A DNA stretch of 64,000 nt from an uncultured Nitrospinota bacterium (GTDB taxonomy: Bacteria; Nitrospinota; Nitrospinia; CAJXCL01), in NCBI GenBank assembly GCA_964394335.1, contig CAYMVZ010000001.1, positions 7,360 through 71,359 of the forward strand. The letters are read 5' to 3'. Both the position numbers and the translations under genes were made by a program. The notes under the pieces are model-generated. The model worked only from the letters and a program-made list of their open reading frames with translations. It was not told where the DNA came from and did not search any database. Below are positions 1,313 through 64,000 of this stretch, piece after piece (the stretch's first letter is position 1; each line of letters begins with the position of its first letter).

Positions 1313-3415
1313 ATGAAATTTACAAAAAGTATTTTAAAATACTCTTTTTTTATCGTAATCTTGCTGTTTGGTTCGTTAGAAAATGCTCAAGCGTATATTG
1401 GGCCGGGAGCGGGCTTTGCTTTTATATCTTCCTTTTTTATTCTTTTCATCACATTTTGTTTAGCGGTATTTTACTTTATTACCTGGCCTTTTCGGTTTGC
1501 TTTTAAAGCGTCAGTCCGGAAGATAAGACAAAATAAAGTAAAAAGCGAAATCAAGCAAGTGGTGGTTGTCGGTTTAGATGGCATGGATCCTAAACTGACA
1601 AAAAAGTTTATGGAAAAGGGGAAACTTCCAACTTTCCAGAGATTAAAGGAAGAGGGAACATTTCTTCCCTTGTCTTCAAGTAATCCGCCAATTTCTCCTG
1701 TTGCCTGGTCTTCATTTATGACAGGAGTTGACCCTTCTTACCATAACATCTTTGATTTCTTCACGCGGAACCCACTTACTTATTTACCCATGCTCTCTTC
1801 CGCTGAGATAGGAACAGCTTCAAAAGTTGTTCCTCTTGGTAAGTATAACATTCCTCTTGGAAAGCCAAGGGTGAAACTTTTAAGAAAGAGTAAGCCCTTT
1901 TGGACAATCCTGGGTGAATACGGTGTTTTCAGTTCTGTTATTCGTGTTCCGATTACTTTTCCGCCGGAAAAGTTTCATGGTGTACTCTTATCCGGGATGT
2001 GCGTACCGGATTTGAAAGGATCTCAAGGTATGTTTTCTTTTTATACTACGAACGGAACATATGTGAAAAATGAAACAGGAGGCGCACGTCACCCTGTTAC
2101 ACTGAAAGATAATACGATTGATACCTATGTCTCTGGACCTAATAATTTTCTTCTTAAGGAGGGAGACGAGCTAAAAGTTCCGCTTTCCATAAAAATTAGT
2201 AAAGATAATAAAAAGGCTGAAATCAATATTTGCCGCCAGAGTTTTGAGTTAGAACCTGAAACCTATTCACCCTGGATCAAAATAACTTTCCGTCCTGGTC
2301 TGGGAATGAAAATCACTGGAATTTGCCGTTTTTATATAAAGAGTTTAACTCCGAATTTTGAACTTTATGTTTCACCCATTAACATTGATCCTGAAAAACC
2401 TGCCCTCCCGATATCGCATCCATTTATTTACGCTACGTATCTTTCTAAACTGACAGGATGTTATGGCACTCTAGGACTTTCTGAAGACACATGGGCGCTG
2501 AATGAAGGCGTTATTGATGAAAATAGTTTTTTAAAACAGACCGATCTCCTTTATGAGGAGCGTGAAAATATGTTCTTTAAAGTATTAGACAGGTCTCCAA
2601 AAGGGTTTTGTGTCTGTGTGTTTGATACTTTAGATCGCGTTCAGCATATGTTCTTCCGCTGTCTTGATAAAAACCATCCTGCAAACAATGGAAAGGAAAC
2701 AAAAAAATATGAAAATGTAATTGAGGATTATTATGTTCGAACGGACAAACTTCTTCAAAGGGTTTTAGAAAAGACGGACGATAAAACTGTTGTTATGGTT
2801 ATGTCCGACCATGGGTTTACTCAGTTTAAAAGAGGGGTTAACCTTAACACATGGTTTTTTCAAAACGGATATCTCGCTCTCAAAGATGGTAAAACCATAA
2901 GCAGAGATTGGTTTATGGATGTCGACTGGAAAAAAACCAGGGCGTTCTCTCTTGCCCTGGCAGGGATTTTTATAAATAGAAAGGGAAGGGAATCGCATGG
3001 AATTGTTAACGATGGAGATGAACTGCAAAACTTAAAACAGGAGTTAATACAAAAACTATCAGGATTTATAGATGAAGATGCAGGAAAAACAGCAATCCGG
3101 GAAATTAGAGACACGGAAAGCATATATTCCGGGCCTTACACCGCTGACGCACCCGACCTTTTAGTTGGTTATAACGCAGGTTACAGAACTTCATGGGCAT
3201 GTGCTACCGGGCAGGTGACAGAATCGGTGTTTGAAGATAACACCAGACACTGGAGTGGAGACCACGCTGTTGACCCGAAAATTGTTCCTGGTGTACTTTT
3301 TGTAAATAAAAAAATTAATACACGATCCCCAGACATAAAAAACATCGCACCCACTATAATAAAGTTGTTTGGTATCCCCATTCCCTCCTATATGAAAGGA
3401 AAGCCTTTTATTTAG
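1313..3415 (+). CDS. Membrane-anchored alkaline-phosphatase-superfamily enzyme, type I phosphodiesterase / nucleotide pyrophosphatase-like.
   Basis: N-terminal signal/TM segment. VVVGLDGMDP metal-binding start of the alkaline-phosphatase fold. Nucleophile-region pattern SSSNPPISPVAWSSFMTG. Paralog of 7011..8990. Confidence 0.6.
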   Translation: MKFTKSILKYSFFIVILLFGSLENAQAYIGPGAGFAFISSFFILFITFCLAVFYFITWPFRFAFKASVRKIRQNKVKSEIKQVVVVGLDGMDPKLTKKFMEKGKLPTFQRLKEEGTFLPLSSSNPPISPVAWSSFMTGVDPSYHNIFDFFTRNPLTYLPMLSSAEIGTASKVVPLGKYNIPLGKPRVKLLRKSKPFWTILGEYGVFSSVIRVPITFPPEKFHGVLLSGMCVPDLKGSQGMFSFYTTNGTYVKNETGGARHPVTLKDNTIDTYVSGPNNFLLKEGDELKVPLSIKISKDNKKAEINICRQSFELEPETYSPWIKITFRPGLGMKITGICRFYIKSLTPNFELYVSPINIDPEKPALPISHPFIYATYLSKLTGCYGTLGLSEDTWALNEGVIDENSFLKQTDLLYEERENMFFKVLDRSPKGFCVCVFDTLDRVQHMFFRCLDKNHPANNGKETKKYENVIEDYYVRTDKLLQRVLEKTDDKTVVMVMSDHGFTQFKRGVNLNTWFFQNGYLALKDGKTISRDWFMDVDWKKTRAFSLALAGIFINRKGRESHGIVNDGDELQNLKQELIQKLSGFIDEDAGKTAIREIRDTESIYSGPYTADAPDLLVGYNAGYRTSWACATGQVTESVFEDNTRHWSGDHAVDPKIVPGVLFVNKKINTRSPDIKNIAPTIIKLFGIPIPSYMKGKPFI

Positions 3416-38772: not shown

Positions 38773-38900
38773 CGGGCTGTCCGAGAACAATGAAAGGGAG
38801 CATGTTGTCATTCTGAGCGATGCGAAGAATCTCATGTTTTCAATACGTTGCCAGTAGGAGATTCTTCGGCAAAGCCTCAGAATGACATTTTCGGACAGTC
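38773..38900. repeat. MITE-like long imperfect palindrome with TGTCATTCTGAGC...GCTCAGAATGACA arms.
   Basis: gggctgtccgag...tgtcattctgagcgatgcgaagaatctc // gagattcttcggcaaagcctcagaatgaca...tcggacagtc. Confidence 0.5.
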
Positions 38901-38948: not shown

Positions 38949-38985
38949 TCGCCCCTTATGTCATTCTGGTTCCCAATCAAGTTGG
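38949..38985. repeat. Small palindromic element atgtcattc-tgg-ttcccaa tcaag ttgggaa tgacat (same TIR family).
   Basis: Reverse-complement symmetry seen directly. Related copies at 3458..3475, 40713..40752 and 42246..42276. Confidence 0.45.
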
Positions 38986-39211
38986 GAATGACATTACCTG
39001 ATCGGGAATCTAGTTGAGCACTGATCGCTGGGGTTCGTTATTCTCCTTGGTCTTACCTGCCTGTGTTAATTCGTACCCCCATTGCAGAATTGCAAAAATA
39101 TCAGCCTATATTGGATAAATTTGCAATATCGCATTATAATCAATGGTTATAACTCCTAATTCAATAGCAAAATCACTTGACAAAAGATGTCATACATTGT
39201 AAACATGCCGT

Positions 39212-39481
39212 ATGGTTTTCTATGAAAGTGAAATCAAAAAGGCCGTAAAAAAAGGAACTATCCCCAAAAATGTATTTAAAAGATTTGATAATGTGTTTAT
39301 TTCTTTAGATATTACAAATGATTTAGCTCTTTTTGATATTAAAAAATTAAAGTCATCGGGGGAAAAAACTTACTATCGATTGAGGAAAGGAAAGTATAGA
39401 GCTTTTTTTTTGTCGAAAAGAAAAATTACTATGTAATTTCATTAGCTAAACGCGAGGAGGTATATAAAAAATGGGGGTAGT
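39212..39481 (+). pseudogene. RelE/ParE-superfamily (BrnT-like) toxin gene disrupted by a -1 frameshift in a T9 homopolymer (39403..39411).
   Basis: Annotated frame ends ...YRLRKGKYRAFFLSKRKITM. Adding one T gives ...YRAFFFVEKKNYYVISLAKREEVYKKWG, matching the conserved RelE C-terminus and overlapping the antitoxin start. Confidence 0.5.
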
Positions 39482-39689
39482 TTCGGTTAGATTTAACAAA
39501 GAGGAAGAAAAAATAATAAAAAAACTGTCGGACCATTTTCATGCTGATAAGTCAGCATTAATAAAAAAATCCTTATATGAGCTTTATGAAAATATGGAGG
39601 ATATTAGTATAATAAAAAAATATGAGGCAAAAGAGAAAAAAGGGAAAGTTGCATTTTTCACTGCTGATAAGATTTTAACGCATGATTAA
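39471..39689 (+). CDS. Ribbon-helix-helix antitoxin (BrnA/CopG-like).
   Basis: VSVRFNKEEEKIIKKLSD...KSALIKKSL RHH pattern, immediately downstream of the toxin. Confidence 0.5.
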   Translation: MGVVSVRFNKEEEKIIKKLSDHFHADKSALIKKSLYELYENMEDISIIKKYEAKEKKGKVAFFTADKILTHD

Positions 39690-39894
39690 AAGGTAAGGAG
39701 TTATAACCATCGCATCAAGACAGACGTGAAACAGCTTGTCGCCGTTCTATGCTTTGTCAGCTATCAAAGCTTTTCTGATATTCTATCGCATTCCAGTTAA
39801 GTTTCACGCTGCCTACGCGTGTCGTTAGATAAAAGGGGTCATCTTTCCTTGACTACATATATTTTAAAGCAGCAGTCAAATATCAATAAATCAG

Positions 39895-57940: not shown

Positions 57941-58561
57941 ATGTTTCAAGAATATATGGATAAGCTTGTAGAGGCGGTAGCCACAAAAGAATTTTCTGAA
58001 GAAGTTATTAAAGCAAAAAAAGAATATTTCTCTAAAGTTGGAGAAATTTTTGAAGATGATACATATTTTGAAAATAAAATGGTTTCATTTACGGAATGGT
58101 ATTGTTTTGATCGAATATCTGAAAAATATCAAAAATCCCCCCTTGAACATTTTATTGATAGCAACATGCTATCCTGGAATAAGGAAAAATTAGATATTTA
58201 CACAGGTTTTTTAAAGAATATTCATTCAGTTTTTTACATAAATAAAATAAAAAAAAGTGAAGTTGTTATTCAAGATATGTGTGATTCAAATAAATTCACA
58301 ATCTCTATGAATCAATCAAATCTTATCTTTCACAAAAGAGACGTCTTTGAAGCCCGTCTTATTCCCTTTAAGGAAAAATATTTTTTTTCCGGTTCTTTTT
58401 GCTTCCATCCAAAGCAGTTATATAGAAAAATTAGAAAAACTTTAAAGAAAAAATCAATTAATCAGACAGAAAAAATGGAATTTCTATTCCTTCTTTCCTC
58501 AATGAGTTTAAAATTAGAACGATCAAGAAACATAAACTATAAAGATATTTATAAGATTTAA
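57941..58561 (+). CDS. Hypothetical 206 aa protein inserted between carA and carB. Start overlaps the carA stop (TGAATG).
   Basis: Intact ORF with no recognisable motif; translationally coupled position. Confidence 0.4.
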   Translation: MFQEYMDKLVEAVATKEFSEEVIKAKKEYFSKVGEIFEDDTYFENKMVSFTEWYCFDRISEKYQKSPLEHFIDSNMLSWNKEKLDIYTGFLKNIHSVFYINKIKKSEVVIQDMCDSNKFTISMNQSNLIFHKRDVFEARLIPFKEKYFFSGSFCFHPKQLYRKIRKTLKKKSINQTEKMEFLFLLSSMSLKLERSRNINYKDIYKI

Positions 58562-58608: not shown

Positions 58609-61600
58609 ATGCCAAAACAAACAGATATTAAAAAAATATTGCTGATCGGTTCGGGACCCATTGTGATAGGGCAGGCATGCGAGTTTGATTATTCTGGAAC
58701 GCAGGCATGTAAAGCATTAAGAGAAGAAGGTTTTTACATTATTCTTCTTAACAGCAACCCTGCCACTATTATGACTGATCCGGAAATAGCGGATAGAACT
58801 TACATTGAACCTATTACTCCTGAAATTGTTAAAAAAATAATCGAAAAAGAAAAACCAGACGCTATTCTGCCTACCATGGGAGGACAAACAGCATTAAACA
58901 TTGCATTGAATGTTGCTGAAGACGGTTTTCTCAAAAAACATGGGGTGCAGTTAATTGGAGCTAACGAAAAAACTATTAAAAAAGCGGAAGATAGAAACCT
59001 GTTTAAAGAGGCTATGTGGAATATCGGCTTGAATGTTCCGAAAAGCAGCTATATCAATTCACAGACAGAAGCGATGAGTGTGATAAAAAAAATAGGTTTC
59101 CCGGCCGTCATAAGGCCATCTTTTACTTTGGGAGGTACAGGAGGCAATATCGCTTTCAACCAAAAAGAATATGAAAACTATGTGGCCTGGGCTCTCGATG
59201 CCAGTCCGGTTAATCAAGTTTTGATTGAGGAATCAGTCCTTGGATGGAAAGAGTATGAACTGGAAGTCATGCGTGACAAAAAAGATAACGTGGTCATTGT
59301 TTGTTCTATTGAAAATTTTGACCCTATGGGTGTTCATACAGGCGATAGTATTACCGTTGCGCCGGCCCAGACTCTTACTGATAAAGAATATCAAATAATG
59401 AGAGACGCATCTATCCGGATTATTCGAGAGATTGGAGTGGAGACAGGTGGCTCCAACATCCAGTTTGCTGTAAACCCGGAGAATGGACATCTGACTGTAA
59501 TTGAAATGAACCCCCGTGTTTCACGTAGTTCCGCGCTTGCTTCCAAGGCTACGGGCTTTCCTATAGCCAAAATAGCCGCTAAACTCGCCGTGGGCTATAC
59601 ATTAGATGAAATTCAAAACGATATTACCCGGGAGACCCCGGCTTCATTTGAACCTACTATTGATTACTGTGTGGTTAAATTTCCCCGTTTTAATTTTGAA
59701 AAGTTTCCGGATGCAAACCAGACACTTACCTCACAAATGAAGTCAGTAGGCGAAGCTATGTCTATCGGACGCACATTTAAAGAAGCATTACAGAAATCGA
59801 TGAGATCGCTTGAAATAGATAGTTATGGATTTGAAAGCCATTTTTCAAAAAACCAGATACCACAAATTAAAAAACTGGAGATTATAAAAGAAAAGCTTAC
59901 CGTGCCTAACTGGGAAAGGGTCTGGATTATTGCCGATGCTCTCCGGATGGGTATGTCTATAGGGGAAATTTTTAATCTTACAAAAATAAACGAATGGTTC
60001 CTTTATAATTTAAAGGAAATTGTGGATTTTGAAGAAGAGATAAAGAGAAAAGGAAAAAAAAAGCTGCCGGAGAAATCCATTCTTGCGCGGGCGAAGGAAC
60101 TTGGGTTTTCTGATGTACGACTGGGAAAGCTGCTTCAATTGGATGAAAAAAGTATCCGAAAGGAAAGACAACTGAGAGGGATAAAAGCTACCTTTAAGAA
60201 TGTGGATACCTGCGGCGCTGAATTTGAGGCGTATACCCCTTACTTGTACTCAACTTACGAAAGTGAATGTGAGGCCAAACCTACTGATAAGAAAAAAATG
60301 ATGATCCTTGGGGGAGGGCCTAACAGGATAGGACAAGGCATTGAATTTGATTATTGCTGTGTTCATTGCTCCTTTGCGCTTAAAGAAGAGGGATATGAAA
60401 CAATTATGGTCAATTGCAACCCGGAAACGGTAAGCACTGACTATGATACATCAGACCGCCTTTATTTTGAGCCTTTGACATTTGAAGATGTTATGAACAT
60501 AGTTGAAGTTGAAAAACCATGGGGAGTCATTGTGCAGTTTGGTGGCCAAACGCCATTGAAACTTGCTGTCTCACTAAAAAATGCAGGTGTTAAGATTTTA
60601 GGGACTTCCCCTGAAAGTATTGACAGGGCAGAAGACAGGCAGTTATTTAAAGATTTGATCCATAAACTTAATTTGAGACAACCTGACAACGGAACCGCAA
60701 CGTCCATGGAAGAAGCTGAAAAGGTTGCTGAAAAAATCGGGTACCCTGTTGTTGTGCGCCCCTCTTATGTTTTAGGAGGCCGGGCAATGGAAATCGTTTA
60801 TGACAGGGAAAGCATCGAATCCTATATGAGTAATGCAGTACAGGCGTCCCCTGATCACCCGGTATTGATAGACAAGTTCCTGGATTCTGCTGTGGAAGTT
60901 GATGTAGATGCAATTTCAGACGGACATCAAGTGGTTGTTGGAGGGATTATGGAACATATAGAAGAGGCAGGCATCCATTCGGGTGATTCAGCCTGTTCCT
61001 TAATGACCAGAACTATACCGGAAAATGTACTCGATGAAATCAGGCGGCAAACAAGGCTCCTGGCTCTCGAACTTAATGTTATAGGGCTGATAAATATTCA
61101 GTTTGCAATCAAAAAGGAGGACGTTTATATTCTCGAGGTTAATCCCAGGGCGTCACGAACAATCCCTTTCGTAAGCAAGACAATTGGAGTCCCTCTGGCA
61201 AAACTGGCAGCAAAAGTAATGGCAGGTAAAACCTTATCCGAGTTGGGATTTACAGAAGAAGTAAAAATTAATCATATCGCAGTAAAAGAATCGGTTTTTC
61301 CTTTTATCAAATTTCCTAATGTCGATACCATCCTGGGGCCGGAGATGAAATCCACCGGGGAGGCAATGGGCATCGACAAAACTTTTGGTCTGGCATTTGC
61401 CAAATCGCAGGCGGCCTCCGGAACAAGCCTTCCTTTAACAGGCACTGTCTTTCTCAGTGTAAAGGATGAAGACAAACCCTCTGCAGTCAAAATTGCCCGG
61501 CAATTATCCCAATCAGGATTTAAAATAATGGCAACAAAAGGAACAGCCAATGCAATTAGAAAAGCCGGGATGGAAGTGAAATCCGTGTTGAAAGTAAAAG

Positions 61601-61830
61601 AAGGCCACCCCCATATTGTAGATCATTTAACCAATAAAGAAATTGACCTTGTTGTGAACACCACCTTTGGCAAGCAGGCTATTATAGATTCTTATTCACT
61701 CCGGCGGACCTCTTTAACACGCGGTATTCCTTATTGCACTACTATAGCAGGCGCTTTTGCCGCTATATCCGCAATTCAAACTTTACAACAGCAATCATTG
61801 GATGTCTGCCCAATTCAAGAATATTTTTAG
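58609..61830 (+). CDS. carB: Carbamoyl-phosphate synthase large subunit.
   Basis: Duplicated ATP-grasp halves; 1073 aa. Confidence 0.95.
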
Positions 61831-62001
61831 CAGGTGTGATTTTTTTTTTGAAATTCGGGGGTTTAATCGGGTTTCCTAAAACGGTAAAGTTTTTCATTTC
61901 GACTGAAAGGAGAAATCCTTAACTTCTATCTGATCAATAGCTTAGGATTTCTCGCTCCGCTCCAACTGACGGCATAGAAAATCATCACTCTAAGGGTGGT
62001 A

Positions 62002-62436
62002 CTAAGATTCATGGTAGGTCACATGCATATGTTCAAAAACGCGCTGGATTTCTTTCTTAGACATAACAACAGGAGGGCGGATCTGTTTTTTTGCTCTGAC
62101 AGGATCAATATCATCAGAAAGCGGAAGGTCCAATACTTGTTTGTAAAGAAAAATAATAGCATTTAAAGCTTGTCTTTGGGTTGCAGCCGCAACCTTTCTG
62201 TTACTTGCCAGATGGCTTAAAAACTTTTCAATCTCAGTTTTGCCCATTTCTTTAGGATGTTTTTTATAGTCATAGAATTTCAGGTAATGAACAATCCACT
62301 CACAATAGGTCTGTTCAGTTCTATAAGCATAATGATGATATCTTAATACTTGTCTGACCTGATCCATCAGTTTTAATTTTGGATCGGGTCTAAATTTACT
62401 CTTGCTTTCCATAGAAACATTTAATAAAGTATTCAA
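62002..62436 (-). pseudogene. intI: Truncated integron-type tyrosine recombinase (intI N-terminal SAM-like domain only, 144 aa; catalytic domain missing).
   Basis: …RTEQTYCEWIVHYLKFYDYKKHPKEMGKTEIEKFLSHLASNRKVAAATQRQALNAIIFLYKQVL…IRPPVVMSKKEIQRVFEHM aligns residue-by-residue with the IntI1 N-terminus. Only ~170 bp remain before carB. Confidence 0.6.
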
Positions 62437-62647
62437 AAAAAAACAAGCATCATCAAAATTTCCATGTTTGATGCTTTAATATTCAATAACATAGAAAATT
62501 GCTACAATATTCAATATATATGTAAAACATGGAAAACACAACCATTTTTTTCCATGTTTTGCTATTCAATATACCAATAGGTGGAAAATATTACATGCTA
62601 TAAGGGTAATAGATAGAAACTGTTTCCATCTATCAACAATGTTAGGA
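62437..62647 (+). promoter_or_regulatory. attI-like region with direct repeats (ttccatgtttgatgc / ttccatgttttgc / aaaacatggaaaac), ending in the core site GTTAGGA at 62641..62647.
   Basis: Located between the divergent intI remnant and the first cassette ORF. GTTAGGA is the exact inverse of the attC R'' TCCTAAC at 63204. Confidence 0.4.
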
Positions 62648-62654
62648 TTAAAAA

Positions 62655-63209
62655 ATGAAAATTGAATGGTCTGTAGTAGCTACAATAGCAGCGCCAATTA
62701 TTGCATTGTTTATTGGCGCCGCTCTAGATTCTTATCTTAGAAAAAAATCTAAGCTCATTGCTTATTTTGGCCATATTGCCGACTTTAGAATTAAAAAAGT
62801 AAATACTACTGCTGTATATACGCACAGTTTAGTCATTAGAAATGCAGGGAAATTAGCAGCTAACAATGTACGCCTAGGACATTATGCTATGCCTCCTGAT
62901 TTTCATATATCTCCTGCAATAGAACATGAAGTAAAAAACATACCGGACTCAGGTCAGGAAATTCTATTTCCAAAACTGGTGCCAAACGAACAGATAACCA
63001 TCTCTTATCTTTATTTTGTTGCAATCGAAGCAGGTCGAATCCATTCTTATTTAAAAAGCGACGAAGGATTCGCAAAAGTAATACCTGTCATTACGCAGCA
63101 AAGATTTCCGAAATGGGTTGGTAATTTAACAGTTATTTTGGCTTTAGTTGGAATAATAGCTTTGCTCTACATTTTCTACTCATTTATAAGTGGCATAGAA
63201 AAATCCTAA
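62655..63209 (+). CDS. Integron cassette ORF: 184 aa protein with N- and C-terminal TM helices, unknown function.
   Basis: Starts 8 nt after GTTAGGA. Stop overlaps the attC R'' site. Confidence 0.45.
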   Translation: MKIEWSVVATIAAPIIALFIGAALDSYLRKKSKLIAYFGHIADFRIKKVNTTAVYTHSLVIRNAGKLAANNVRLGHYAMPPDFHISPAIEHEVKNIPDSGQEILFPKLVPNEQITISYLYFVAIEAGRIHSYLKSDEGFAKVIPVITQQRFPKWVGNLTVILALVGIIALLYIFYSFISGIEKS

Positions 63210-63333
63210 CAATTTGGTGCACATGACAGTGAACAGTGAGTCGCCGTTTCATAAGACCCACTGCTATCAAAGGTTTCTGTATTTCAGAGTTTATATTGCC
63301 TTTGTTCACTGCCTGTGACCAAGGTCGTTAGGC
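63204..63333 (+). other. attC recombination site (~130 bp imperfect palindrome).
   Basis: R'' TCCTAAC (63204-63210) and R' GTTAGGC (63327-63333). Inner arms ttggtgcacatgacagtgaacag versus ctgttcactgcctgtgaccaa. Confidence 0.5.
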
Positions 63334-63370
63334 GGCAGTACGGATATTTCTCACAGATCAGGGGTTGAAC

Positions 63371-64000
63371 TTGAGTACACTGTCCCACCAAGAAGCAAGG
63401 CGAACGTATGATCGAATCGGTTCGCGGCAAGACTCGCAGCGGTTCTACGAGGACCAGGCCACTTCGCTGGTCCTGCAACACGGAGATTTCACTTCCGCGG
63501 AGTCCGTATTCGAGTTCGGCTGTGGAACCGGTCGCTTCGCGCTGCGCCTGTTCGCGGAATATCTACCTGACACAGCCCACTACCGTGGAGTAGACGTAAG
63601 TCCCAGAATGGTTCAACTGGCTCAAACCCGCCTTGCGCCACACTCATCGCGGGCGGAGGTTATCCTTACTGAGGGCGAACCTCCGGTTGAGGAACCCGCC
63701 GAGTCCTACGATCGATTCATATCAAACTACGTCTTTGATCTACTGTCCCACGAGGATATCCGGGCCGTTCTTCGAGAAGCCCATCGGATTCTTCGCCCGG
63801 ACGGTTTGCTCTGCTTGTCAGGAATTTCCAGCGGGATCGGTTTTGTCTCGCGGATCGTGGCGGGCATGGTGAGCTGGATTCAGTCTATTCGCCCCTCTCT
63901 GGTGGGCGGTTGCCGCCCTGTCGATCTTCTACCATTTCTGCCGCAGTCAGAATGGCAGGTGCAACATCATTCGAAGGTGGTGGCTTTTGGTATTTCATCA
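63371..64000 (+). CDS. Class I SAM-dependent methyltransferase on a GC-rich gene cassette. TTG start after an AGGGG SD; 3'-partial. The ATG-based track splits it into wrong frames.
   Basis: Continuous open frame …EFGCGTGRFALRL…YDRFISNYVFDLL…ILRPDGLL… (motifs I, post-I, II). GC far above the flanks. Confidence 0.55.
   Translation, partial: MSTLSHQEARRTYDRIGSRQDSQRFYEDQATSLVLQHGDFTSAESVFEFGCGTGRFALRLFAEYLPDTAHYRGVDVSPRMVQLAQTRLAPHSSRAEVILTEGEPPVEEPAESYDRFISNYVFDLLSHEDIRAVLREAHRILRPDGLLCLSGISSGIGFVSRIVAGMVSWIQSIRPSLVGGCRPVDLLPFLPQSEWQVQHHSKVVAFGISS

What the first reader, a model, noticed from the sequence alone, without database searches (positions are those of the whole stretch)
62002..64000. 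Degenerate chromosomal integron next to carB
A minus-strand ORF at 62002..62436 aligns with the N-terminal SAM-like domain of integron integrases (RTEQ..W...F...HP..MG..E...FL..LA....V.A.TQ.QAL.A..FLY..VL...P...........P.V....E...) but stops after 144 aa. Beyond it only frame-shifted remnants remain before carB. Divergently there is a repeat-rich attI-like region ending in GTTAGGA, then an ORF, then an attC-like imperfect palindrome bounded by TCCTAAC and GTTAGGC, then a second ORF with its own SD. This is the canonical intI-attI-cassette-attC-cassette layout with a decayed integrase. The array may continue past the window.
Basis: partly seen in the sequence, partly recalled or inferred. Interest (0 to 1): 0.65.

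Follow-up and report, generated by a model that had tools for sequence, protein, structure and literature searches.

The report
Decayed two-cassette chromosomal integron beside carB
This is a real but broken integron (a bacterial gene-capture device): its recombinase gene has lost the catalytic half, two captured gene cassettes remain frozen between carB and metH, and an intact second integron from the same sample could still move them, which makes it an ordinary though well-documented example of integron decay.

Summary
Window 62002-62436 (-) encodes only the N-terminal SAM-like domain of an integron integrase. It matches TIGR02249 positions 1-118 of 315. A conserved, repeat-rich attI follows and ends in G|TTAGGA.

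- Cassette 1 is a 184-aa membrane ORF with a 130-nt attC.
- Cassette 2 is a 218-aa methyltransferase with 55-59% GC, in a host of about 38% GC.

An attC covariance model built only from other loci hits 63204-63333 at 120.8 bits. Comparative contigs place the cassette junctions exactly at G|TT.

Two details were wrong. No catalytic-domain remnants remain before carB, so the loss was a deletion. The array does not continue: cassette 2 and a 73-nt attC end about 107 nt past the window, and metH follows.

Close relatives have carB-metH with only a degenerate attC between them. An intact integron (449-aa IntI, same attC family) lies on another contig of the same metagenome. Its composition is indistinguishable from the window's, so it is probably the same genome. 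A lone toxin-antitoxin cassette sits at 39146-39830.

Verdict: a new member of a known kind, namely a CALIN with a recognisable intI stub. Interest is modest.

The parts
58609..61830 (+). carB (1073 aa), the left chromosomal flank of the integron island
   Evidence: ORF list. Pfam CPSase domains in the called genes.
61831..61871 (.). Conserved carB-downstream flank. Homology with integron-free relatives L091 and L092 ends at 61871.
   Evidence: blastn of L091/L092 against L001 gives 94% identity up to L001 9217, which equals window 61871.
61872..62024 (.). Unique 153-nt junction segment. It contains an imperfect inverted repeat (61894-61924 / 61939-61969) and the last about 7 codons and the stop of the truncated ORF. 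It holds no integrase catalytic-domain remnant.
   Evidence: No copy elsewhere in the window or in any fetched locus except the same contig. tblastn finds nothing. Inverted repeat I1. Homology to L087 and L088 stops at about 62022-62024.
62002..62436 (-). Truncated integron integrase gene (delta-intI). It keeps the N-terminal SAM-like DNA-binding domain only and lacks the whole catalytic domain. The likely start is ATG 62412.
   Evidence: Pfam PF13495 at E 2.5e-31. TIGR02249 positions 1-118 of 315, 125 bits against a cut-off of 265. Identical in four independent assemblies.
62437..62647 (+). attI region. It has conserved repeated motifs (TTTCCATGTTT in both orientations, ATATTCAATA x3) and the recombination core ...CAACAATG|TTAGGA. 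The AGGA of the core doubles as the ribosome-binding site of cassette 1.
   Evidence: Repeats. Three-way alignment with L087 and L088 gives 83% mean identity, and homology to L087 ends right after GTTAG.
62642..63327 (+). Cassette 1. ORF 62655-63209 encodes 184 aa with predicted N- and C-terminal membrane helices and has no family hit. The cassette also includes its attC.
   Evidence: No Pfam, NCBIfam or PADLOC hit. The exact protein occurs on 10 marine contigs. The boundaries come from attI and attC1.
63204..63333 (+). attC1 (130 nt). R'' is TCCTAAC, the reverse complement of the cassette's first bases GTTAGGA. It has an unpaired central spacer, an L box with an extra-helical G and a second extra base on the R''-L'' arm, a large terminal structure, and R' GTTAGGC.
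   Evidence: Model R1, built from 8 attCs of L089/L090 only, gives 120.8 bits at E about 2e-24 over its full length. Fold z = -4.4. The family stem shows 13 of 25 pairs with compensatory changes and 89% of cells paired, against 35-49% when slid.
63328..64000 (+). Cassette 2, cut by the window end. It is a class I SAM-dependent methyltransferase of 218 aa, with TTG at 63371 and a stop at window-equivalent 64027. GC is 55-59% against a host value of about 38%. Its 73-nt attC2 lies at window-equivalent 64035-64107 (L001 11381-11453), with R'' GCCTAAC as the reverse complement of GTTAGGC.
   Evidence: Pfam methyltransferase domains. GC profile. L001 and L002 extension. attC2 fold z = -3.1. The same cassette occurs at 88.6% nt identity in high-GC arrays L103-L106, with homology starting at the R' boundary.
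39146..39830 (+). Separate lone cassette (SALIN type). It starts at G|TTATAA and carries a 74-aa RelE/ParE-like ORF (39212-39436), a 72-aa RelB/DUF6290 antitoxin (39471-39689), and an attC at 39701-39830 of the same family (R'' TTATAAC, R' GTTAGAT).
   Evidence: R1 hit of 49.9 bits at E 1.4e-8 over its full length. RelB NCBIfam and DUF6290 Pfam hits. Sequence.

Best explanation
The locus is a small sedentary chromosomal integron that has lost its own recombinase. It sits in the carB-metH intergenic region of an uncultured low-GC marine bacterium whose nearest named relatives are Nitrospinae-type MAGs.

**What is present.** A deletion removed the whole catalytic domain of intI. It left an open 136-144-aa N-terminal DNA-binding stub, the attI site, and two co-oriented cassettes transcribed away from intI.

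- Cassette 1 is a 184-aa membrane protein. Its 130-nt attC belongs to the attC family of an intact integron found on a second contig of the same metagenome. That contig has the same composition as the window and is probably the same genome.
- Cassette 2 is a methyltransferase of foreign, high-GC origin with a short 73-nt attC. It is the kind of cassette that circulates in gammaproteobacterial-type arrays.

**Inferred history.** Both cassettes were captured at attI by G|TT single-strand recombination while a full-length IntI was available. Cassette 1 entered last, because it is attI-proximal.

**Current state.** The platform cannot recombine by itself. Any remaining mobility, such as attC1 x attC2 excision of cassette 2, would need the 449-aa IntI of the other integron acting in trans.

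**Shown:** the anatomy, the boundaries, attC family membership, the foreign origin of cassette 2, the absence of the catalytic domain, and the end of the array.

**Inferred:** the order of events, trans-activity, expression from a promoter in the attI/intI 5' region, and same-genome status of the intact integron.
For: - **Integrase stub.** TIGR02249 is the best hit, but only over profile positions 1-118 of 315. There is no catalytic remnant. The same truncated allele appears in 4 independent assemblies at 99.9-100% identity.
- **attI.** It is conserved in L087 and L088. The junction with a different first cassette in L087 falls exactly after GTTAG.
- **attC1.** An independent covariance model gives 120.8 bits. 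Family covariation is strong: 13 of 25 pairs are compensatory, and 0 of 500 shuffles reach the observed score. The extra-helical G in L'' and the second extra base lie on the R''-L'' arm, as defined in PMC2727003.
- **Cassette rule.** R'' is the reverse complement of the cassette's own start in 8 of 10 cassettes examined. The other 2 have one mismatch.
- **Cassette 2.** It has a GC anomaly. Homologues are 70-92% identical, and the named ones are Gammaproteobacteria or Woeseia MAGs. In L103-L106 the same cassette sits between attCs, and homology begins at the cassette boundary.
- **End of the array.** metH, TAtT and accC follow.
- **Empty site in relatives.** L091 and L092 have only a degenerate attC there, at 55 and 44.8 bits.
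- **Intact integron L093.** It comes from the same metagenome (3300020423). Its IntI scores 446 bits on TIGR02249. Tetranucleotide correlation with the window is 0.990, against 0.991 for the window's own contig. It shares a 21-nt REP element with the window.
Against: - No sigma-70-like promoter was found in 61800-63500, so cassette expression is unsupported.
- Same-genome status of the intact integron rests on composition, one shared repeat and co-occurrence in a sample. It does not rest on physical linkage.
- The only contig suggesting a different second cassette (L003) is exactly window sequence up to attC nucleotide 27 and exactly L090 sequence afterwards. It may therefore be an assembly chimera through the 28-nt shared arm.
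- The intact IntI is only 43% identical to the stub. It may not recognise this attI.
- IntegronFinder's own attC model could not be run.
Confidence: 0.87

Rival explanations
1. The integron is not a dead relic but still operates. The intact 449-aa IntI of the second integron (L093) shuffles cassettes at this platform in trans, so cassette content at the carB locus varies within the population.
For: - attC1 belongs to the attC family of the intact integron.
- A lone cassette with the same attC type lies in the same contig.
- L003 joins cassette 1 to the second cassette of the intact integron.
- Short contigs L005 and L006 break at or inside attC1, as expected if the assembly graph branches there.
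Against: - L003 is consistent with a chimera through a 28-nt identical arm at 2x coverage.
- Every long assembly (L001, L002, L004) shows the same two cassettes.
- attI recognition is normally specific to the cognate IntI (established knowledge), and the two IntIs share only 43% identity.
Confidence: 0.2
2. The N-terminal stub is not a pseudogene. It is a retained, selected stand-alone attI/attC-binding protein, for example a regulator or competitor of the resident integrase.
For: - Three alleles (window, L087, L088) are disrupted in three different ways, with breakpoints within about 60 nt just after the domain boundary.
- All three keep the 122 aligned N-terminal codons open.
- dN/dS is 0.11-0.21 at dS 0.17-0.37.
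- The attI motifs are conserved alongside.
- The resident intact IntI itself carries an extra N-terminal SAM-like stretch.
Against: - Low dN/dS is equally expected if most divergence accrued while the genes were intact and the truncations are recent.
- Only three alleles are available, two of them from low-coverage short contigs.
- Relatives L091 and L092 have lost the stub entirely.
- No expression data exist.
Confidence: 0.08
3. The high-GC second cassette in a low-GC contig, or the truncated gene, is a metagenome mis-assembly. Alternatively, the 'integron' is a chance combination of a Xer-like recombinase fragment and palindromes.
For: There is an abrupt GC jump at 63330. This is metagenomic contig data.
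Against: - The same junctions occur in four assemblies from different projects and assemblers. These include a 12.6-kb contig spanning carA to TAtT at 99.6% identity.
- The GC jump coincides to the base with the G|TT cassette boundary.
- The stub scores far higher on the integron-integrase model than on XerC/D models: 125 bits against 23-25 bits.
- The covariance-model E-value is about 2e-24.
Confidence: 0.02

Closest known systems
Sedentary chromosomal integrons with inactivated intI at a fixed chromosomal site, for example the Xanthomonas integron next to ilvD (recalled from the literature, not re-read here)
   Same: It occupies a fixed position between housekeeping genes. The integrase gene is degenerate. 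The array is short, strain-variable or decaying. Cassettes mostly have unknown function.
   Different: The host is an uncultured low-GC marine lineage near the Nitrospinae. The integrase here lost its whole catalytic domain by deletion while the N-terminal domain stays open. A second, intact integron of a different IntI lineage appears to coexist.
[quoted passage not shown] 2016, PMC4889954)
   Same: There are two attC sites with no functional IntI nearby. This is how IntegronFinder would most likely class it, because its IntI call and its pseudogene search both rely on the C-terminal profiles.
   Different: A recognisable intI N-terminal stub and an attI are still attached, so the origin by integrase loss is directly visible. 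In that survey only 15 of 279 CALINs had a detectable intI pseudogene, and an N-terminal-only stub would have been missed.
Vibrio-type chromosomal integron attC families (VCR-like, about 120-130 nt, homogeneous within a host)
   Same: attC1, the lone cassette's attC, and the attCs of L089, L090 and L093 form one 129-131-nt family. The stems are conserved, the terminal structure is large, and toxin-antitoxin cassettes are present.
   Different: The sequence family, IntI lineage and host are unrelated. The arrays seen are short, at 3-5 cassettes.
SALIN / attG-inserted isolated cassettes (Loot et al., bioRxiv 10.1101/2022.09.11.507474)
   Same: The RelE/RelB-like cassette at 39146-39830 is a single attC-bearing cassette far from any integrase.
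   Different: It is not part of the finding's locus. Its insertion site was not characterised here.

Membership tests
Complete integron (intI + attI + at least one attC; IntegronFinder sense) | An integron integrase with the tyrosine-recombinase catalytic domain and the IntI-specific C-terminal insertion | tested here: not met
   Only TIGR02249 positions 1-118 of 315 are present, at 125 bits against a cut-off of 265. There is no PF00589 hit. tblastn finds no catalytic remnant.
Complete integron (intI + attI + at least one attC; IntegronFinder sense) | An attI site adjacent to and divergent from intI, with cassette insertion at G|TT | tested here: met
   L087 shares the attI up to ...CAACAATGTTAG and then has a different cassette. 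The region is conserved in 3 alleles. Recombination activity itself is not testable here.
Complete integron (intI + attI + at least one attC; IntegronFinder sense) | Co-oriented cassettes, each one ORF plus one attC | tested here: met
   Cassette 1 is 62642-63327. Cassette 2 is 63328 to window-equivalent 64101. Both lie on the + strand, and each ends in an attC.
Integron integrase (NCBIfam TIGR02249) | The N-terminal domain matches IntI better than XerC/D or other tyrosine recombinases | tested here: met
   TIGR02249 scores 125 bits and PRK15417 94 bits, against 25.5 bits for XerA and 22.9 bits for XerD.
attC recombination site | R'' (RYYYAAC) and R' (GTTRRRY) boxes. R'' must be complementary to the R' rebuilt from the cassette's own first bases. 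| tested here: met
   attC1 pairs TCCTAAC with GTTAGGA. attC2 pairs GCCTAAC with GTTAGGC. The first base of TCCTAAC and the last of GTTAGGA depart from the strict consensus. The rule holds in 8 of 10 cassettes across loci, and the other 2 have one mismatch.
attC recombination site | An imperfect hairpin with an unpaired central spacer, 2-3 extra-helical bases on the R''-L'' arm (G in L''), and a variable terminal structure (PMC2727003) | tested here: met
   The covariance-model alignment of 63204-63333 shows the spacer AA/GUC, a bulged G in GGU-G-CAC, a second bulged A, no bulge on the R'-L' arm, and a terminal region of about 66 nt. Fold z = -4.4.
attC recombination site | Detected by a covariance model of attC sites | tested here: met
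   A home-made model from 8 attCs of other loci gives 120.8 bits at E about 2e-24. This model is family-specific, and it does not detect the short attC2.
attC recombination site | Detected by the IntegronFinder or HattCI general attC model | not testable with these tools
   That model is not available here. Rfam has no hit in the window.
CALIN | At least two attC sites within 4 kb and no IntI detected by both IntI profiles | tested here: met
   attC1 and attC2 lie about 700 nt apart. The C-terminal domain is absent.
SALIN (for the 39.7-kb element) | A single attC with no integrase or other attC nearby | tested here: met
   The only other R1 hit in 64 kb is at 39701-39830. The neighbours are bioB and an RNA-binding protein gene.

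The most novel reading that the evidence does not exclude
The integrase N-terminal domain is deliberately kept as a stand-alone protein. In this intI lineage the catalytic half has been removed at least three independent times, just past the domain boundary. The DNA-binding half and its attI motifs stay intact and show low dN/dS. This would suggest a domesticated attI/attC-binding factor. It might silence or tune the local cassettes, or modulate the resident two-SAM-domain IntI of the second integron.
Probability: 0.08. Interest if true: 0.6.

Novelty: new member of a known kind. Interest (0 to 1): 0.3.

Why it matters
**What the locus shows.** It is a clean natural snapshot of how integrons die. 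Three states of one chromosomal site can be compared:
- stub + attI + two cassettes in the window;
- other stub alleles in L087 and L088;
- only a degenerate attC in L091 and L092.

**A survey blind spot.** CALIN-type arrays can carry N-terminal-only intI relics. Surveys based on the C-terminal profile would not see them.

**Cross-lineage transfer.** A high-GC, gammaproteobacterial-type cassette has moved into a low-GC genome of a Nitrospinae-like mesopelagic lineage. That genome probably also carries a second, intact integron with an unusual N-terminally extended IntI.

None of this changes the concept of integrons. The value is descriptive and comparative.

Tried and rejected
- **Rfam.** A gathering-threshold scan of the whole window gave no hits. 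Rfam has no attC family.
- **Promoters.** The sigma-70 promoter scan of 61800-63500 gave 0 sites, so no Pc candidate could be named.
- **Catalytic-domain remnants.** I suspected 'STTLRVMIFYAV' in another frame might be a relic of the ...STTMIYTHV box. tblastn at E up to 100 gave nothing credible, so I dropped the idea.
- **L003 as proof of cassette shuffling.** I rejected it as decisive. It switches from 100% window sequence to 100% L090 sequence inside a 28-nt shared attC arm.
- **Genome-collection scan with CarB.** It found no close relative, with a best of 68% identity, so the host species is not among the GTDB representatives reachable by that scan.
- **Host identity.** CarA homologues gave only Nitrospinae, Nitrospirae and delta-type MAG names at 63-69% identity.
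- **More distant relatives L096 and L098.** Other genes follow carB there, and there are no R1 hits. They are uninformative on the ancestral state.
- **PADLOC on cassette proteins.** It returned only a generic methyltransferase-domain similarity to mad2.
- **The 153-nt junction segment.** I searched for other copies in case it was a MITE or IS scar. None were found.
Full report
**Observation**

The sequence is as described.

- **Integrase stub.** The minus-strand ORF 62002-62436 is 144 aa from TTG and 136 aa from the ATG at 62412. It hits Pfam Phage_int_SAM_4 at E 2.5e-31. In NCBIfam its best hit is the integron-integrase model TIGR02249. The hit covers only profile positions 1-118 of 315 and scores 125 bits against a cut-off of 265. 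Xer models score 23-25 bits. It is therefore the N-terminal domain of an integron integrase and nothing more.
- **attI-like region.** An A+T-rich region (62437-62647) lies divergently from the stub. It carries TTTCCATGTTT/AAACATGGAAA motifs in both orientations and three ATATTCAATA direct repeats. It ends in GTTAGGA (62641-62647).
- **Cassette 1 ORF.** A 184-aa ORF (62655-63209) follows. It has no family hit.
- **attC-like palindrome.** A 130-nt imperfect palindrome (63204-63333) is bounded by TCCTAAC and GTTAGGC. As single-stranded DNA it folds with z = -4.4, and 0 of 200 shuffles fold as well.
- **Cassette 2 ORF.** A methyltransferase ORF starts at TTG 63371 behind AGGGG and runs off the window. 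G+C jumps from about 0.38 to 0.55-0.59 at the palindrome's right end.

**Extending the contig**

The exact 184-aa protein is on 10 public marine contigs.

- L001 is JGI 3300020423 contig Ga0211525_10000100 (83 kb). It is 100% identical to the window and extends it by 9.2 kb.
- L002, L004 and L005 come from other projects and repeat the same structure at 99.6-100% identity. Mis-assembly is therefore excluded.

Beyond the window, in window-equivalent coordinates (L001 + 52654):

- the methyltransferase ends at 64027;
- a 73-nt attC (GCCTAAC...GTTATAA) occupies 64035-64107, with fold z = -3.1;
- about 200 nt later comes metH on the opposite strand, then TAtT, accC and accB.

The array has two cassettes and does not continue.

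**Is the palindrome an attC?**

A metagenome scan for the left arm of the palindrome found two contigs.

- L089 is an array of toxin-antitoxin cassettes.
- L090 is a Tara contig with an integrase, an attI with GTTAGG repeats, and three cassettes.

I took eight 129-131-nt sites from these two contigs, with none from the window. They align with a consensus stem of 25 pairs. Thirteen pairs show compensatory changes. Overall 89% of cells are paired, against 35-49% when the partners are slid. Of 500 shuffles, 0 reach the observed covariation score.

The covariance model built from them (R1) finds window 63204-63333 over its full length at 120.8 bits, E about 2e-24.

The alignment shows the features that define attC sites in PMC2727003:
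- paired R boxes;
- an unpaired central spacer;
- a bulged G inside the L'' box and a second bulged base, both on the R''-L'' arm;
- a long terminal structure.

In addition, each cassette's R'' box is the reverse complement of that cassette's own first seven bases. This is expected if cassettes are circles closed at G|TT.

- Cassette 1 pairs GTTAGGA with TCCTAAC.
- Cassette 2 pairs GTTAGGC with GCCTAAC.
- Across the window, L089 and L090, 8 of 10 cassettes obey the rule exactly and 2 have one mismatch.

**attI and the cassette junctions**

The closest relatives of the stub are P0002 (92% identity, contig L087) and P0003 (89%, L088).

- **attI junction.** L087 is 93% identical to the window across the stub and the attI region up to ...CAACAATGTTAG. 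It then carries a different first cassette, a DUF4145 ORF. This places the attI crossover at G|TT of 62641-62643.
- **Cassette 2 junction.** Cassette 2 has hundreds of 70-92% identical homologues. The named ones are Gammaproteobacteria or Woeseia MAGs. In contigs L103-L106 the same cassette (88.6% nt identity) sits in a high-GC array between short attCs. Homology to the window starts at the GTTAGGC boundary and ends inside the attC.

Cassette 2 is therefore a horizontally acquired member of a widespread cassette family.

**The integrase is deleted, not frame-shifted**

Homology with L087 and L088 stops at about 62022-62024, around codon 137-141.

I ran tblastn with the full-length IntI of L090 and with the C-terminus still present in L087. 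It finds nothing in 61780-62024.

Of the 171 nt between the stop codon and carB, the 41 next to carB are ordinary flank shared with relatives that lack the integron. The remaining segment, 61872-62024, is unique.

**The site in relatives**

- **Close relatives.** Two contigs with at least 90% identical CarB (L091, L092; flanks 92-94% nt identity) have carB followed by metH, with about 550 nt between them. They have no stub, no attI and no cassette ORF. They do have a degenerate attC of the same family, at R1 55 and 44.8 bits. The island from 61872 to window-equivalent 64287 (2416 nt) is thus a variable, decaying integron locus.
- **More distant relatives.** L096 and L098 (CarA 81-82% identity) have other genes after carB and no R1 hits.

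**A second, intact integron**

The L090 integrase is 449 aa. It passes TIGR02249 at 446 bits, and it has an extra N-terminal SAM-like stretch.

Its longest contig is L093 (Ga0211525_10000214, 60.8 kb). This contig comes from the same metagenome as the window.

- Its tetranucleotide correlation with the window is 0.990. The window's own contig extension gives 0.991, and the two halves of the window give 0.980.
- It shares the 21-nt repeat AAAGCTGAGCTTAGCTCTGCC with the window.

It is probably the same genome, but this is not proven. Its attCs belong to the family of attC1. The stub is only 43% identical to this IntI, so the two platforms belong to different IntI lineages. Cury et al. report that about 20% of integron-bearing genomes encode more than one IntI.

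**Mechanism**

*Shown.* The platform lacks any catalytic residues, so it cannot recombine by itself.

*Inferred.*
- Both cassettes entered at attI while a full-length enzyme existed, and attI-proximal cassette 1 entered last.
- Residual mobility would depend on the other integron's IntI acting on the attC sites.
- Expression would come from a promoter in the attI/intI 5' region. No sigma-70 consensus was found there. The AGGA of the attI core lies 8 nt before the ATG of cassette 1.

*Caveat on L003.* L003 appears to show cassette 1 followed by the 422-aa cassette of the intact integron. However, it is exactly window sequence up to attC nucleotide 27 and exactly L090 sequence afterwards. It may be an assembly chimera through the 28-nt shared arm at 2x coverage. 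I do not count it as evidence of shuffling.

**An odd point**

The window, L087 and L088 carry three different disruptions.

- The window has a truncation after EHMH.
- L088 has a truncation 5-6 nt further on.
- L087 has an in-frame internal deletion 15 codons later, plus a frameshift.

All three keep the N-terminal 122 aligned codons open. dN/dS is 0.11-0.21 at dS 0.17-0.37. Recent independent truncations of previously functional genes explain this adequately. A retained function for the stub is not excluded, but it is weakly supported.

**Comparison and verdict**

In IntegronFinder terms this is a CALIN: two attCs and no IntI. It has an intI relic that the published pseudogene screen, based on C-terminal profiles, would miss.

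It resembles the decayed fixed-site chromosomal integrons known from other bacteria. The differences are the host lineage (nearest named relatives are Nitrospinae-type MAGs at 65-69% CarA identity), the mode of integrase loss, and the coexisting intact integron.

It is a new member of a known kind.

Noticed in passing
window 39146-39830: This is a lone integron cassette, 22 kb from the integron, lying between bioB and an RRM RNA-binding protein gene. It starts at G|TTATAA. It carries a 74-aa RelE/ParE-like ORF, a 72-aa RelB/DUF6290 antitoxin, and a 130-nt attC of the same family (R1 49.9 bits, E 1.4e-8). No integrase is nearby, so it is SALIN-type.
   Followed up: partly
L093 10001-11350 (= L090 3680-5029), same metagenome as the window: This is an intact integron integrase of 449 aa with an N-terminal extension of about 135 aa. 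The extension gives a second Phage_int_SAM_4 stretch, so the SAM-like domain appears duplicated. Its attI has several GTTAGG repeats. The cassettes encode 81-, 422- (zinc ribbon), 359- (DUF4062) and 251-aa proteins.
   Followed up: partly
L091 5559-5683 and L092 4353-4478: Close relatives have no integron between carB and metH. They retain a degenerate attC there, with R' mutated to GTAATGC, surrounded by REP-like repeats.
   Followed up: yes
window 31290, 37510; L093 192; L091 5490; L092 4284: A 21-nt repeat, AAAGCTGAGCTTAGCTCTGCC, recurs in intergenic regions of this genome and its relatives. Other palindromic REP/MITE-like units lie at window 38807-38886 (GTCATTCTGAG...CTCAGAATGAC) and near 38985 and 40729 (GGAATGACA).
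   Followed up: partly
L001 11454-11485 (window-equivalent 64108-64139) and L089 1231-1262: The 32 nt right after attC2 (AAAAAGGGGTCAAGTCCACTCTTGACTGCATTA, a small hairpin) recur at 97% identity inside an ORF-less cassette of L089. The stretch between attC2 and metH may therefore be the relic of a third cassette.
   Followed up: partly
L089 (minus strand) about 1110-1210 and L090 (minus strand) about 2950-3040: A conserved pair of hairpins (CCCATTTATTACTTGCTTCGCTTCGTAAAAAATGGGAC...TCCTGCATTT...GCAGGGA) lies just upstream of attC sites in two different cassettes. Its function is unknown. It could be a terminator or a small RNA.
   Followed up: no
L003 1-2083: This contig is exactly window sequence up to attC1 nucleotide 27 and exactly L090 sequence from there on. 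It is either an assembly chimera through the 28-nt shared attC arm or a real attC-mediated exchange between the two integrons.
   Followed up: partly
L088 592-667: Directly after the truncation point of that intI allele lies a near-perfect inverted repeat, with 18-nt arms GGGTCAAACCTTATTTAT / ATAAATAAGGTTTGACCC that blastn extends to 24 nt at 96% identity. It may be the scar or end of the element that caused the truncation.
   Followed up: no
window 57941-58561: A 206-aa ORF (Pfam DUF7986 in the precomputed calls) is inserted between carA and carB. Its start overlaps the carA stop. It is conserved in relatives L096 and L098 but absent in L091.
   Followed up: no
one search hit list (P0021, P0047, P0055, P0108 and others): All 120 listed homologues of the stub are 251 aa or shorter, well below a full-length integron integrase (about 320 aa). 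Some lie on long contigs, and in several the sequence looks frame-shifted. Part of this is contig-end truncation, and the search may favour short proteins. I did not quantify it.
   Followed up: no
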